Shown here one piece after another: positions 1,239 to 28,583 of a DNA stretch of 34,478 nt. The position numbers and the translations under genes are program-made. The stretch spans positions 1 to 34,478 of the IMG/VR virus record IMGVR_UViG_3300032305_001786, one strand, 5' to 3'. The notes beneath the pieces were generated by a model. The model worked only from the letters and a program-made list of their open reading frames with translations. It was not told the DNA's origin and searched no databases. This stretch comes from a virus (Duplodnaviria; Caudoviricetes). The number at the start of each line of letters is the position of its first letter. Position 1 is the first letter of the stretch.

Positions 1239-2015
1239 ATGAAAAAACAAATATTAAACAAAGAGTTTTGTAGAATGCAAAAACTAGCAGGTCTAATCAC
1301 TGAAAACGAATTAAATGAAGCAGTTGAGGCTAAAGCTTGGTTAGTTGATGAAGAAGATGGTGTTCCAAAAATTTTTCGTTTTGCTACTGTTGAAGATGCT
1401 AAAGATGAACAATTTGATGAAATGGCTGATAACCCATACAATCGCCCATTATTCACTTCATTAGAAGATTTGAAATCTTATTTAGAGGCTCAATATATGC
1501 GTGATTATGATATTGAAAAATATCGTTTTGTAAAAAACCTAAACGAAAACCTAAACGAAAACAAATACAGAGCATCAGATTTTCCTGAAGTAACTGGATT
1601 TGAAGAAGATAATAATAGGATAATCATTACTTTTTCTGATAATACTAAAGATTTAATTGAACCAAGAAATTTTGCTAATAAAGAAGTAGGGTACTCTAAA
1701 TTCCTTGAGTTATTAAATACTATGGATACTGATCCTAAAGCTAAACAAGCAGTAAGTGATTTTTTAGAAATCAAAAGATTTAATGTAATTAGTACAAGTG
1801 ATATTAATAAACTTTTAGCTGACAATGGTGTAGATGAAAAATATTACGCGTCTATGGGTGGTAAAGAAATCGAAGGAGGAACAGAGACATGGATAGATAT
1901 AATAGAAGATATTATAGGTAAACCATACGACTCTGGAAATATCAGTAAAAAAGATGATATGAAAATACAAACATTCATGAATCATCTAAGCCGTTTAGGT
2001 ATTGAAGTAGTATAA
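1239..2015 (+). CDS. Modular hypothetical protein with RMQKLAGLITE leader (putative internal head protein)
   Basis: N-terminal EFCRMQKLAGLITENELNE; internal NLNENLNEN linker; acidic. Confidence 0.75.
   Translation: MKKQILNKEFCRMQKLAGLITENELNEAVEAKAWLVDEEDGVPKIFRFATVEDAKDEQFDEMADNPYNRPLFTSLEDLKSYLEAQYMRDYDIEKYRFVKNLNENLNENKYRASDFPEVTGFEEDNNRIIITFSDNTKDLIEPRNFANKEVGYSKFLELLNTMDTDPKAKQAVSDFLEIKRFNVISTSDINKLLADNGVDEKYYASMGGKEIEGGTETWIDIIEDIIGKPYDSGNISKKDDMKIQTFMNHLSRLGIEVV
1534..1562 (+). repeat. 12-bp in-frame tandem repeat (aaaacctaaacg x2.4) encoding NLNE-NLNE
   Basis: Read directly from the sequence. Confidence 0.85.
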
Positions 2016-2026
2016 AAGATATAAGT

Positions 2027-2054
2027 AAGCTTGGTTCGCCAAGCTTTCTTTTTT
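2027..2054 (+). terminator. Intrinsic terminator (AAGCTTGG-TTCG-CCAAGCTT plus T tract)
   Basis: Perfect 8-bp stem, UUCG loop and T-rich tail just after stop 2015. Confidence 0.75.
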
Positions 2055-2059
2055 ATATT
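2031..2059 (+). promoter_or_regulatory. TTG-N20-TATATT promoter (Bacteroidota sigma70-like)
   Basis: TTG 2031-2033, TATATT 2054-2059; identical spacing at four other sites. Confidence 0.7.
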
Positions 2060-2066
2060 ACTGCTA

Positions 2067-2987
2067 ATGGTAAACCAACTATTAGTCACATTAATGAATT
2101 CTGTACTTAGTACAGGCAAATCTACAGCGAGAGGTAATTACGCGTATACTTGTCCTAAGTGCAATCATCATAAACCTAAACTAGAAATATGTTTAGATGA
2201 AAATAGTCCTGATTTTCAAAAATTTGGATGTTGGGTATGTAAATTTAAAGGTAAAAAGTTAATAAATCTATTTAAAGCAATAGATGTACCTTCAGATAAA
2301 ATACATGAACTAAAATCATTAGTTAAAAGTGATGCAGTTATTGAGAAACAAATAGTTAGTGAACAAGTTAAACTACCTGAAGAATATCAACATGTGTTAA
2401 ATAATCCATCCCATGCTGCTAAACGAGCATTAGCTTATTTAAAAAGTAGAGGTTTAACAGAAGATGATATATTTAAATATAATATAGGTTATTGTGAAAC
2501 AGGAAAATATTCTGATATGATTATTGTTCCTTCATATGATGAATCTGGTACTTTAAATTATTTTGTTGGTAGAAGTTATCTGCCTGAATCAAATAGAAAA
2601 CTCAATCCAGATACATCACGTAATATTATACCTTTTGAAATATTTATAAATTGGAATTCACCAATCATACTATGTGAAGGTATGTTTGATGCCATTTCAA
2701 TTAAACGTAATGCTATTCCATTGTTAGGTAAAAATATACAATCAAAGTTAATGTCTAAAATAGTTTCATCTACTGTTAAAAAAGTATATATAGCTTTAGA
2801 TAAAGACGCTATTAAACAAGCACTTGATTTTTGTGAACAATTAATTAATGAAGGTAAAACAGTACATTTAATAGAGTTAGAAAATAAAGATCCAAATGAA
2901 ATGGGCTTTAAAGCATTTATTAAATTACTATATAACTCAATCCCTCTAACATACTCAGGTTTATTAGAGAAAAAACTACAATTATGA
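2067..2987 (+). CDS. DNA primase (DnaG/T4 gp61-like)
   Basis: Zn finger CPKC...CWVC; TOPRIM motifs ILCEGMFDAI and IALDKDA, KDPNEM. ATG 2067 preferred over TTG 2031. Confidence 0.92.
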   Translation: MVNQLLVTLMNSVLSTGKSTARGNYAYTCPKCNHHKPKLEICLDENSPDFQKFGCWVCKFKGKKLINLFKAIDVPSDKIHELKSLVKSDAVIEKQIVSEQVKLPEEYQHVLNNPSHAAKRALAYLKSRGLTEDDIFKYNIGYCETGKYSDMIIVPSYDESGTLNYFVGRSYLPESNRKLNPDTSRNIIPFEIFINWNSPIILCEGMFDAISIKRNAIPLLGKNIQSKLMSKIVSSTVKKVYIALDKDAIKQALDFCEQLINEGKTVHLIELENKDPNEMGFKAFIKLLYNSIPLTYSGLLEKKLQL

Positions 2988-3751
2988 GTAAAATAAAACA
3001 CTCTTATAATCGAATCTTAGAAATATCTGATGATCATAAACAAATAACTTTACCTGATTCAAGGTATTACCGCCGTAATGGTAACTATTATCCAAGTGTA
3101 ACTTATGTATTAGGTTATTATCCTAAAGGAAAATTCTTTGAAGATTGGTTAAAAAAAGTAGGTTATTCTTCTGAACATATTGTTAAGAAAGCAGCTGAAG
3201 AAGGTACTCAAGTCCATGAAATGATTGAAGAATATCTAAATGGTAATGAAGTTAATTTCCTTAATCAATATGGTAATCCACAATATAGTCCTGATGTATG
3301 GCAAATGTTTTTACGATTTGTAGAATTTTGGGAAATATATGATCCTAAACTAATTGAAACTGAAGTTCATTTATTTTCAGATGAATTAAAAGTAGCAGGT
3401 ACATGTGATTTAATTTGTGAAATTGATAATAAGTTATGGTTAATTGATTTTAAAACATCAAATCATATCCAACCAACATATGAATTACAAACTGCTGTTT
3501 ATGGTCAATGTTATAAAGAATGTTTTGATAAACCAATTGATAACTATGGTATATTGTGGTTAAAATCATCTAAACGTAAGTTAAATAAGGAAAAAATGTC
3601 TGGTAAAGGATGGGAAATAGTGACTTCAGAACGTTCACATGAAGAAAATATAGATATATTTAAAACTGTGAAACGTTTATTTGATTTAGAAAATCCAAAA
3701 GATGCACCTATTTTTACCGAGTTTAAAACATCTGCTAAACGAAAATTATAG
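2984..3751 (+). CDS. PD-(D/E)XK exonuclease (Cas4/RecB-like phage exonuclease)
   Basis: YPSVTYVL, GTQVH, E...AGTCDLI...LIDFKTS, LQTAVY motifs; ATGA overlap with primase. Confidence 0.88.
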   Translation: MSKIKHSYNRILEISDDHKQITLPDSRYYRRNGNYYPSVTYVLGYYPKGKFFEDWLKKVGYSSEHIVKKAAEEGTQVHEMIEEYLNGNEVNFLNQYGNPQYSPDVWQMFLRFVEFWEIYDPKLIETEVHLFSDELKVAGTCDLICEIDNKLWLIDFKTSNHIQPTYELQTAVYGQCYKECFDKPIDNYGILWLKSSKRKLNKEKMSGKGWEIVTSERSHEENIDIFKTVKRLFDLENPKDAPIFTEFKTSAKRKL

Positions 3752-27404: not shown

Positions 27405-27433
27405 TCCTCTCCTTGGATAGTATTCCTGGATCG

Positions 27434-27464
27434 ACCCTCCCCTAAAAAGGAGGGTTTCTTTTTT
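27434..27464 (+). terminator. Intrinsic terminator
   Basis: ACCCTCC/GGAGGGT stem followed by TTCTTTTTT. Confidence 0.8.
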
Positions 27465-27495
27465 GCAACTCTTCGCATTTTGAATTCTTCATATA

Positions 27496-27503
27496 TATTT
27501 ATA
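27496..27503 (+). promoter_or_regulatory. Putative late promoter motif TATTTATA for the scaffold-MCP transcript
   Basis: After the terminator and upstream of the scaffold gene. Confidence 0.7.
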
Positions 27504-27611
27504 TGTGAATATGCCGTTCCAAATCTACATACGGTATCTATTTATTAATAATCCCTATTACGCTACAGTAATTAAGCGTATTTCCAAAAAAACAATTTGA
27601 GGACAAAAATT

Positions 27612-28583
27612 ATGACAAACAGAGATTTGTTAAAGGAGGCTATTGCCGACGCAAAAACAATCAAAGAAACTGCTATCGCAAGTGCTAAAGCTGCTTTAGA
27701 AGAATCTTTTACACCTCATTTAAAATCTATGTTAGCTGCTAAAATTAACGAGATGGACAACTATTATGAAGAAGACGACACAATGGAAGAAAATCTTGAT
27801 GAAATTAACACTGACTTAGACAAAATGAAAGAAAAAGAAGACATTGAAGAAGTAGAAGCAGAAATTGAAGAAATCGACCTTGACGAACTTTTAGCTGAAT
27901 TAGGCTCAACTGATGAAATCACCGAAGGTGAAGAAAAAGAAGAAGAAAAAGTTGATGAAGCTAAAGAGGAAGAAGAAGAGGAAGAAGAAGAAGAAATTGA
28001 TCTTGAAAACATGAGTGAAGAAGATCTTAAAAACTTTATTGAAAGTGTAATCGAAGACATGATCTCATCTGGCGAAATTGAAGCTGGTGAAGAAATGAAA
28101 GATGAAGATGAAGCTGAAGAAATGGGAGCTGAAGAAATGGGAGCTGAAGAAGAAGTCGACATCGATGAAATTTTAGCTGAACTAAAAGATGAAAAAATGG
28201 ATGAAGCTAAAGATGAAGAAATTGACGAATTAAAGAAAGAGCTTGATGAAACTATGAATGCTATTAAAACATTACGTTCAGAACTTAATGAAATCAATTT
28301 ATTAAATGCTAAATTGCTTTACACAAACAAAATTTTCAAATCAAAAAATCTTACTGAATCAGAAAAAATTAAAGTATTGGCTGCGTTTGACAAGACTACA
28401 TCTAAAAACGAAGCTAAATTAGTTTATGAAACATTAATTGAAAATTTATCAAAACCTAAAAATTCAATTAAAGAAAACTTAGGTCGCGCTTCTAAACCAG
28501 CGGGCGTGGCTCAGATTAGAAAACCAATTGTAGAATCTAATGACATGGTTACTAGATTCCAAAAATTAGCTGGTATTATTTAA
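27612..28583 (+). CDS. Prohead scaffolding protein (T4 gp22 analogue)
   Basis: Highly acidic coiled-coil between protease and MCP; AEEMG repeats; ends RFQKLAGII; ATG 27612 preferred. Confidence 0.88.
   Translation: MTNRDLLKEAIADAKTIKETAIASAKAALEESFTPHLKSMLAAKINEMDNYYEEDDTMEENLDEINTDLDKMKEKEDIEEVEAEIEEIDLDELLAELGSTDEITEGEEKEEEKVDEAKEEEEEEEEEEIDLENMSEEDLKNFIESVIEDMISSGEIEAGEEMKDEDEAEEMGAEEMGAEEEVDIDEILAELKDEKMDEAKDEEIDELKKELDETMNAIKTLRSELNEINLLNAKLLYTNKIFKSKNLTESEKIKVLAAFDKTTSKNEAKLVYETLIENLSKPKNSIKENLGRASKPAGVAQIRKPIVESNDMVTRFQKLAGII

What the first reader, a model, noticed from the sequence alone, without database searches (positions are those of the whole stretch)
1239..28583. Scaffold C-terminal motif reused as an N-terminal leader: candidate capsid-targeting signal
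Seen: the scaffold ends MVTRFQKLAGII* (28545-28583). Three dispersed ORFs begin with nearly the same peptide: 1239 EFCRMQKLAGLITE, 7515 EQFKRMQQLAGLITE and 16243 EQFRRMQKLAGLLTE, each closing on [I/L]-T-E. Established: scaffold C-terminal helices bind coat protein (e.g. P22); T4 internal proteins use a short N-terminal capsid targeting sequence that gp21 removes after [L/I]-x-E. Inference: these proteins dock on the scaffold-binding site of the MCP, are co-packaged, and are released by the protease. This would be a portable capsid-loading tag derived from the scaffold.
Basis: partly seen in the sequence, partly recalled or inferred. Interest (0 to 1): 0.9.

Follow-up and report, generated by a model that had tools for sequence, protein, structure and literature searches.

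The report
Scaffold-tail mimic tags phage cargo
Three unrelated proteins of this T4-type phage, and many in its relatives, begin with a short peptide that matches the tail of the head-scaffold protein; it likely works as an address tag that loads them into the capsid, and two tagged proteins of distant cultured relatives appear in published virus-particle protein lists.

Summary
Confirmed. The four motifs are where stated and are the window's only matches (expected 4e-6); codons vary, so the protein is conserved. The window is the head region of a T4-type phage nearest Flavobacterium phage immuto (MCP 56%). The tail ends the gene before MCP in 233 of 234 distinct relatives. The leader hits 2,010 protein clusters, precedes unrelated, mostly acidic cargo (119 ORFs, 94 clusters) and is usually followed by a T4-gp21-type [LIV]-x-E site. 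New here: a distant jumbo-phage clade has a different tail variant and leaders that match it. N-terminally tagged PA5oct gp203 and Atu_ph07 gp257 (a Nudix protein) are in published virion proteomes; their scaffolds are not. Best reading (0.6): a capsid-loading tag using the scaffold tail's docking site, probably on MCP. The partner and cleavage are inferred; T4's cargo binds the scaffold instead, and gp257 lacks the cut site. It works like T4's capsid-targeting sequence plus CpmB-style mimicry but belongs to neither family. No paper found (10 searches); this scan reported it before on other DNA (e1-5705091, e1-5971496, e1-5727998).

The parts
1239..1304 (+). Leader of ORF 1239-2015 (258 aa, acidic, no family): MKKQILNKEFC-RMQKLAGL-ITE; motif 1272-1295, predicted cut after Glu22; TATTTAT 19 nt upstream of the start
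   Evidence: no Pfam, PHROG or Atlas family
7515..7562 (+). Leader of ORF 7515-8168 (217 aa, acidic): MEQFK-RMQQLAGL-ITE; motif 7530-7553, predicted cut after Glu16; TATTTAT 26 nt upstream; cargo falls in a 12-member cluster of tagged proteins
16243..16308 (+). Leader of ORF 16243-16665 (140 aa, acidic, no family): MNKLMLNEQFR-RMQKLAGL-LTE; motif 16276-16299, predicted cut after Glu22; no TATTTAT in the 60 nt upstream
26790..27404 (+). Prohead protease, T4 gp21 homolog; His75, Ser129 and Asp154 lie in the motifs that align with T4 gp21; its own N-terminus has an L-I-E site
   Evidence: PF03420 E=2e-29; PDB 5JBL E=3e-15
27612..28583 (+). Putative scaffold (gp22-position gene, 323 aa, very acidic, 11 [ILV]-x-E-[small or E] sites)
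   Evidence: position and composition; the same gene position is annotated 'scaffolding (T4 gp22-like)' in phage 121Q
28527..28583 (+). Scaffold tail: IVE site (28527-28535), then RFQKLAGII (motif 28554-28577) and stop
28617..30290 (+). Major capsid protein, gp23 family; residues 1-60 are a predicted three-helix propeptide with near-invariant K27-W28, G32-L33-L34-E35, L50-E51-N52-Q53 and Glu60; candidate docking partner
   Evidence: PF07068; alignment; AF2 secondary structure in a low-confidence model, pTM 0.39

Best explanation
The RMQxLAG leader likely acts as a capsid-loading tag: it would dock on the same site inside the assembling prohead as the scaffold's C-terminal peptide, probably on the major capsid protein, and in this phage would then be cut off at the [IL]-T-E site by the gp21-type protease. 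Shown from sequence: the motif is confined to scaffold C-termini and cargo N-termini, is conserved as protein, precedes unrelated cargo, and is followed by [LIV]-x-E. Shown in published data for distant relatives: tagged proteins occur in virion preparations. Inferred: the shared site, that it lies on MCP (best candidate the 60-residue propeptide), cleavage, and release of cargo into the host with the DNA. Leaders behave as one lineage of tags that is shuffled between cargo genes and tracks the scaffold tail only over long evolutionary distance.
For: (1) Placement. A profile built only from 32 scaffold tails gave 41 hits in 10 genomes or contigs, 3 partial records and the window: 13 scaffold tails, 27 near N-termini, 1 C-terminus of a small ORF, none elsewhere. 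121 of 129 ORFs from the IMG/VR pattern scan carry it within 15 aa of the first Met. (2) Portability. 119 tagged ORFs fall in 94 clusters once the leader is removed, 81 of them singletons; 2,010 clusters at 50% identity match the leader profile. (3) Tail conservation. 199 of 234 distinct genes upstream of MCP match the tail pattern and 34 of the 35 misses are visible variants; also in RM378, Mel-JY01, PA5oct, XacN1, Phosso and Atu_ph07. (4) Leaders follow the tail between clades: 18 of 18 distant-clade leaders have L/I then R/K like their tails (22 of 22 L; all R/K), while 32 of 36 near-clade leaders have Q and 27 of 36 have M (p=2e-4, one contrast). (5) [ILV]-x-E follows directly in 31 of 35 leaders (19 of the 23 that had not matched the E-requiring scan) and lies at or within 8 residues after the motif in the other 4; T4 gp21 cuts after L/I-X-E (PMC9026906). 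(6) Virion proteomes. PA5oct: the pattern hits 4 of 441 ORFs (5 places): the scaffold plus gp203 (N-terminal and internal), gp206 and gp235; all three are MS-positive (10, 11, 2 peptides), the scaffold is not; base rate 93 of 461, p about 0.008. The same pattern on Atu_ph07, not used to build it: scaffold gp214 (absent from the list) and gp257, which starts MNIDKLKKLAGIKK against its own tail DLKRLAGIKK, is a Nudix protein, and has 4 peptides and 43% coverage; base rate 131 of 714. (7) TATTTAT lies upstream of 12 of 26 tagged genes against 245 of 1,626 others, p=2e-4; late-promoter status is inferred. (8) Precedent: SaPI CpmB shares the 80alpha scaffold's C-terminal motif and occupies the same site on capsid protein (PMC5644958).
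Against: In T4 the internal proteins co-purify with the scaffold gp22 (PMC9026906), and P22 ejection proteins need scaffold to be packaged (PMC8402733): in the known systems cargo goes through the core, not the shell. Within clades, leaders match their own tail no better than chance (p=0.087), and phages with Trp tails mostly keep Met leaders. The PA5oct pattern was loosened after seeing gp203 and gp206; two of its three proteins carry the motif only internally and lie in structural gene clusters. It gave 0 hits in 587 ORFs of fENko-Kae01. RsoM2USA ORF68 and ORF380 carry leaders but are not among the 10 gel bands identified (shallow). The Atu_ph07 sample was only PEG-purified, and its third hit, gp624, is probably chance. 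Cleavage: gp257 has no [LIV]-x-E after its leader; gp203 runs at about full length (55.1 vs 55.9 kDa); PA5oct MCP is listed with 97% coverage at 43.5 kDa, which does not suggest propeptide removal there. Two near-complete relatives (G001, G002) have the tail but no such leader. No proteome was found for any near-clade phage.
Confidence: 0.6

Rival explanations
1. The motif is a core-assembly peptide: scaffold tails and leaders bind the scaffold core (or portal or protease), not the capsid shell. Cargo is still packaged and trimmed, as with T4's capsid-targeting sequence.
For: T4 internal proteins co-purify with gp22; P22 ejection proteins are recruited by scaffold. A second leader class (M-x-x-L-x-x-L-I-x-E) resembles internal scaffold segments such as LDELLAE and IDEILAE. 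No specific covariation of the tail with MCP was found.
Against: The motif sits at the extreme C-terminus behind an [IVL]-x-E site, the position of the capsid-binding element in 80alpha and P22 scaffolds. The MCP propeptide keeps W..LLEG..LENQ in both clades that have the tail, though T4 gp23, whose gp22 lacks the LAG tail, also has KW..LLE and ENQ.
Confidence: 0.2
2. The tagged proteins are accessory scaffold or core components (like T4 gp67/gp68, or size modifiers like CpmB) that compete with the scaffold during assembly and are degraded, not cargo delivered to the host.
For: 71% of 119 tagged proteins are acidic; several repeat the motif internally, and PA5oct gp203 and XacN1 ORF218 look like acidic core proteins. 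CpmB is a scaffold mimic that changes assembly.
Against: Most are short (median 131 aa) and unrelated; ORFs 7515 and 16243 have one predicted cut site each against 11 in the scaffold (ORF 1239 has four). Some carry enzyme domains (GNAT, Acb1-like, Nudix). gp203 and gp257 persist in virion samples while their scaffolds are not detected.
Confidence: 0.12
3. The motif is a recognition signal for the prohead protease or a phage chaperone rather than an address tag; virion detection is incidental.
For: It is flanked by [LIV]-x-E sites in the near clade (upstream in 71 of 119, downstream in 112 of 119, the latter partly by construction). Base rates in the virion lists are about 20%.
Against: MCP and protease have cut sites without the motif; Atu_ph07 gp257 has the motif without a cut site and is in the virion list.
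Confidence: 0.08

Closest known systems
T4 capsid targeting sequence (CTS) of IPI/IPII/IPIII, removed by gp21
   Same: Short N-terminal leader on unrelated proteins, ending in a Glu cleavage site, in a phage with gp20, gp21 and gp23 homologs; proposed as a way to load varied proteins (PMC9026906, PMC9958956).
   Different: No sequence likeness: T4 CTS is MKTYQEFIAE, and T4 gp22 ends VSVYAKVASRF with no LAG motif and no CTS-like segment. Here the leader is 16-22 aa and matches the scaffold tail; thousands of cargo clusters; cargo mostly acidic.
SaPI CpmB mimicry of the phage 80alpha scaffold C-terminus (RIIK helix-and-hook)
   Same: A second protein carries the scaffold's C-terminal motif and binds the same site on capsid protein (PMC5644958).
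   Different: CpmB is a parasite's size-redirection protein with the motif at its C-terminus; here the phage's own genes carry it at the N-terminus with a cut site, on many cargoes. Different motif, different phage family.
P1 DarB N-terminal packaging signal; SPN3US/phiKZ propeptides
   Same: N-terminal signals that direct or accompany head packaging (PMC9024508, PMC10052503).
   Different: No consensus among P1 Dar N-termini; SPN3US propeptides are 20-254 aa, cut at A-X-E; no scaffold-tail copy in the passages read.
Far-T4 phages / Immutovirus
   Same: MCP 56% identical to Flavobacterium phage immuto and 37% to RM378, the Far-T4 reference; the gene order from primase to MCP follows immuto. 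immuto has two tagged genes.
   Different: The Far-T4 paper has no occurrence of 'motif', 'scaffold' or 'internal protein'. No tree was built to place the window formally.

Membership tests
T4 capsid targeting sequence | Short N-terminal leader shared by otherwise unrelated proteins | tested here: met
T4 capsid targeting sequence | Sequence like MKTYQEFIAE / MKTFKEF | tested here: not met
   T4 IP N-termini read; no likeness to the leader consensus
T4 capsid targeting sequence | Ends in an L/I-x-E site and the phage encodes a gp21 protease | tested here: met
   (near clade); not met for Atu_ph07 gp257
T4 capsid targeting sequence | Tagged proteins are in the virion | tested here: inconclusive
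   Yes for PA5oct gp203 and Atu_ph07 gp257; RsoM2USA ORF68 and ORF380 not among 10 bands; no proteome for this phage or immuto
T4 capsid targeting sequence | Leader is removed during maturation | tested here: inconclusive
   Published tables give no N-terminal peptides; gel masses do not resolve 2 kDa
T4 capsid targeting sequence | Leader is sufficient to package a foreign protein | not testable with these tools
   needs a fusion experiment
CpmB-type scaffold mimic | Shares the scaffold's C-terminal motif | tested here: met
CpmB-type scaffold mimic | [quoted passage not shown] | tested here: not met
   motif is RMQxLAG, N-terminal, on the phage's own genes
CpmB-type scaffold mimic | Occupies the scaffold's site on capsid protein | not tested
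   no structure with this peptide in the PDB; covariation gave no specific signal
T4 gp22-type scaffold (ORF 27612) | Acidic gene between protease and MCP, many protease sites, absent from mature virions | tested here: inconclusive
   Position and composition met; no profile match; positional equivalents absent from PA5oct and Atu_ph07 lists but present in the fENko-Kae01 list

The most novel reading that the evidence does not exclude
A scaffold-mimic address tag is used across Far-T4-like and PA5oct/XacN1/Atu_ph07-like jumbo phages to load thousands of unrelated, mostly unknown proteins (including Nudix, GNAT and Acb1-like anti-defence domains) into the head through the scaffold's own site on the capsid protein, for delivery with the DNA. 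The tag would then be a sequence-only index of injected phage effectors and would mark the scaffold-capsid contact in T4-type heads.
Probability: 0.4. Interest if true: 0.85.

Novelty: new variant of a known kind. Interest (0 to 1): 0.72.

Why it matters
How proteins are sorted into a T4-type prohead is still called mysterious in a 2023 review (PMC9958956). A tag that equals the scaffold's own tail gives a specific, testable mechanism in cultured phages (immuto, PA5oct, Atu_ph07). It would let about 2,000 clusters of hypothetical proteins be annotated as candidate head cargo, where early anti-defence proteins are expected, and would add a protein-loading tag for phages of Bacteroidota and Proteobacteria.

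Tried and rejected
MCP alone folded poorly (pLDDT 55, pTM 0.39), so no fold search was run. A natural scaffold-MCP fused ORF in G011 joins the tail to MCP with no linker and was not used. Mutual information between tail and MCP columns: the propeptide looked enriched (10 of the top 30 pairs, 4.1 expected), but other scaffold columns showed the same (2.44 vs 2.8 per top 10), so it was rejected as phylogenetic noise. DNA repeat or promoter as the cause: rejected on codon-position identity. One homologous N-terminal domain: rejected, cargoes do not align. Fresh copying from each phage's own scaffold gene: not supported within clades, apart from three cases with matching rare residues (L528 Trp, L039 Asn, G008 Ile). 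Cargo function: 6 of 119 and 4 of 108 proteins had any Pfam hit; Atlas gave nothing usable for ORFs 1239 and 16243. PDB: the leader profile found only APC16 at E=0.11, taken as chance. The DNA patterns were ill-fitted (missed known tails, or no better than control in most records) and were replaced by protein scans. The XacN1 virion list is in a figure and could not be read. Two look-ups of earlier findings returned nothing.
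Full report
Observation. Composition predicts 4e-6 matches for the strict pattern and 0.003 for a loose one that gave the same four. Synonymous codons differ between copies. Over 78 distinct copies from relatives the second codon position is 0.92 identical and the third 0.59. The feature is a protein motif.

Setting. The window carries terminase, gp20 portal, gp21 protease and gp23 capsid genes. The nearest isolate is Flavobacterium phage immuto (MCP 56%), then Mel-JY01, an uncultured 484-kb phage and RM378. 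RM378 is the reference of the Far-T4 group (PMC4360716, passages). ORF 27612 is taken as the scaffold from position and acidity; it has no profile match. The protease aligns with T4 gp21, which cuts after L/I-X-E (PMC9026906, passages).

The tail. In 80 MCP-anchored loci the motif gave 64 C-terminal and 5 N-terminal hits on the coding strand, plus 4 in short opposite-strand frames. With four more scans, 199 of 234 distinct genes upstream of MCP matched the pattern. Of the 35 misses, 22 are a distant clade ending xL[RK]KLAG, 12 are LAF, LAK or LAD variants, and 1 deviates. In the near clade an [IVL]-x-E site precedes the tail. T4 gp22 and the HTVC008M core protein end differently.

The leader. 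A degenerate DNA scan of IMG/VR saw 129 stretches in 13 of 64 parts (about 630 estimated). In 121 of 129 ORFs the motif is within 15 aa of the first Met, in 2 within 30, in 6 further in. A profile made only from scaffold tails found, in 10 genomes or contigs, 3 partial records and the window, 13 tails, 27 leaders and one small-ORF C-terminus, and nothing else. Seven of those genomes were picked because they had a leader; of the three picked otherwise, immuto has two and G001 and G002 have none. The leader profile matches 2,010 clusters at 50% identity; 140 of the best 150 start at residue 1, which the profile's first Met favours. With the leader removed, 119 ORFs form 94 clusters, median 131 aa, 71% acidic. 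Pfam names 6 of 119 (including GNAT and Acb1-like) and 4 of 108 more. [ILV]-x-E follows directly in 31 of 35 leaders, and in 19 of the 23 that had not matched the E-requiring scan. TATTTAT precedes 12 of 26 tagged genes against 245 of 1,626 others; in immuto it is commoner in the 120-160 kb structural stretch (13 of 40 genes) than elsewhere (15 of 157), so I infer a late promoter.

Leader follows tail between clades. In 33 loci of a distant clade with about 410-aa MCP, the scan gave 18 N-terminal, 22 C-terminal and 6 internal hits. All 18 leaders have L or I then R or K, as their tails do; near-clade leaders are mostly M then Q. Leaders match their own tail better than shuffled tails overall (p=2e-4) but not within clades (p=0.087). 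This is one independent contrast plus three single cases, so it is suggestive.

Published virion proteomes. The distant clade is nearest RsoM2USA and XacN1, then PA5oct and the Rak2-like phages. Their scaffold-position genes end in related tails, clear in PA5oct, XacN1, Phosso and Atu_ph07, degenerate in RsoM2USA, fENko-Kae01, 121Q and SCTP-2. In PA5oct (PMC7318152, passages and Table S5 rows) a seven-residue pattern hits 4 of 441 ORFs: the scaffold, gp203 (N-terminal and internal), gp206 and gp235. The three are MS-positive and the scaffold is not; 93 of 461 proteins are listed. I loosened this pattern after seeing gp203 and gp206. Applied unchanged elsewhere, it gave no hit in fENko-Kae01 (587 ORFs; a relaxed form gave 6, one being MS-positive ENKO_241). 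In Atu_ph07 (PMC6102473, passages, Table S5 from gp57 on, and single rows) it gave three hits in genes: scaffold gp214, absent from the list; gp257, whose start nearly repeats that tail, a Nudix protein with 4 peptides and 43% coverage, identified by gene order and its 16.73 kDa mass; and gp624, a carboxypeptidase with one peptide that I take as chance. That sample was PEG-purified and 131 of 714 proteins are listed. RsoM2USA ORF68 and ORF380 have leaders but are not among 10 identified bands (PMC8504454, passages). XacN1 ORF218 has a leader ending LTE, but its list is in a figure I could not see (PMC5852040, passages). These data concern distant relatives, not this phage.

Mechanism. The simplest account is mimicry. 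Scaffold C-termini bind capsid protein in 80alpha, and SaPI CpmB uses the same motif at the same site (PMC5644958, passages). A cargo that starts with the tail peptide would take some of those sites, be enclosed, and be freed by the protease. The MCP propeptide is the best candidate partner: it is predicted helical and holds 17 positions besides Met1 conserved at 90% or more, although it is probably discarded at Glu60. My covariation test did not single it out. The main rival is binding to the core, as for T4 internal proteins and P22 ejection proteins (PMC8402733, passages). Cleavage is likely in the near clade on sequence grounds but is not general: gp257 has no site, and the PA5oct table shows no clear trimming.

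Comparison and novelty. It works like the T4 capsid targeting sequence but fails the sequence test. It resembles CpmB in principle but not in motif, position or role. P1 DarB (PMC9024508, passages) and SPN3US propeptides (PMC10052503, passages) are looser parallels. Ten searches, the last for the motif letters, found no description; a jumbo-phage review had no relevant passage (PMC7824862, passages). The library lacks most subscription papers, and bioRxiv supplements were closed. This scan reported the near-clade pattern three times before; I had written the same reading before opening those notes. The distant-clade match and the proteome links were not in the notes I could see.

Verdict. Real, widespread, and probably a capsid-loading tag (packaging about 0.8; shared site with the scaffold tail, probably on MCP, 0.6). 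New variant of a known kind; interest 0.72.

Noticed in passing
window 3818, 8363, 10830, 11920, 12270, 12710, 13305, 13822, 14980, 19414: A second leader class, M-x(1-9)-[LI]-x-x-[LIM]-[LIV]-x-E (e.g. MIKLISLLKE, MKKSELRQLIKEE), starts about ten window genes and 96 ORFs in 11 genomes or contigs, including G001 and G002, which lack the RMQxLAG leader; similar segments lie inside the scaffold. Enriched for upstream TATTTAT (36 of 96). The pattern is loose and was not tested against chance.
   Followed up: partly
window, e.g. 1219, 7488, 10818, 19391, 22235, 24138, 25337, 31048, 33197: ATATTTAT sits 13-33 nt upstream of many head-region genes; candidate late promoter of this phage group.
   Followed up: partly
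G005:C1 97905-101301 and 81438: Two tandem MCP genes, and an 82-aa ORF that ends in the scaffold-tail motif: a CpmB-like mini-scaffold candidate.
   Followed up: no
L244 9100-10475 (-), G011: Scaffold and MCP form one 946-aa ORF with the MCP start missing; deletion or assembly artefact.
   Followed up: partly
L149:2980-3540; L031:5958-6410: Tagged cargo with an Acb1-like (anti-CBASS) 2H phosphoesterase domain, and one with a GNAT acetyltransferase domain.
   Followed up: no
P0123, P0126, P0129, P0154, P0237, P0248: Proteins with the leader repeated internally, sometimes after a second-class leader: possible polyproteins cut into several cargoes, or gene fusions.
   Followed up: no
window 28686-28724 (MCP residues 24-36): The MCP propeptide segment LAAKWGKTGLLEG loosely resembles Trp-type scaffold tails (LANRWKKLAGLL) with a one-residue shift; seen by eye only.
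   Followed up: no
window 8193-8360, 3782-4642, 4639-6099: Histone H1-like Hc1 protein; a zeta-toxin-type P-loop kinase domain; a cytidylyltransferase fused to a nucleotidase.
   Followed up: no
NC_055915.1 gp067; MF403008.1 gp214; PV764938.1 gene 339: The scaffold-position genes are annotated as 'DNA polymerase phi-like' or 'Rad50 ATPase'; probably misannotations.
   Followed up: no
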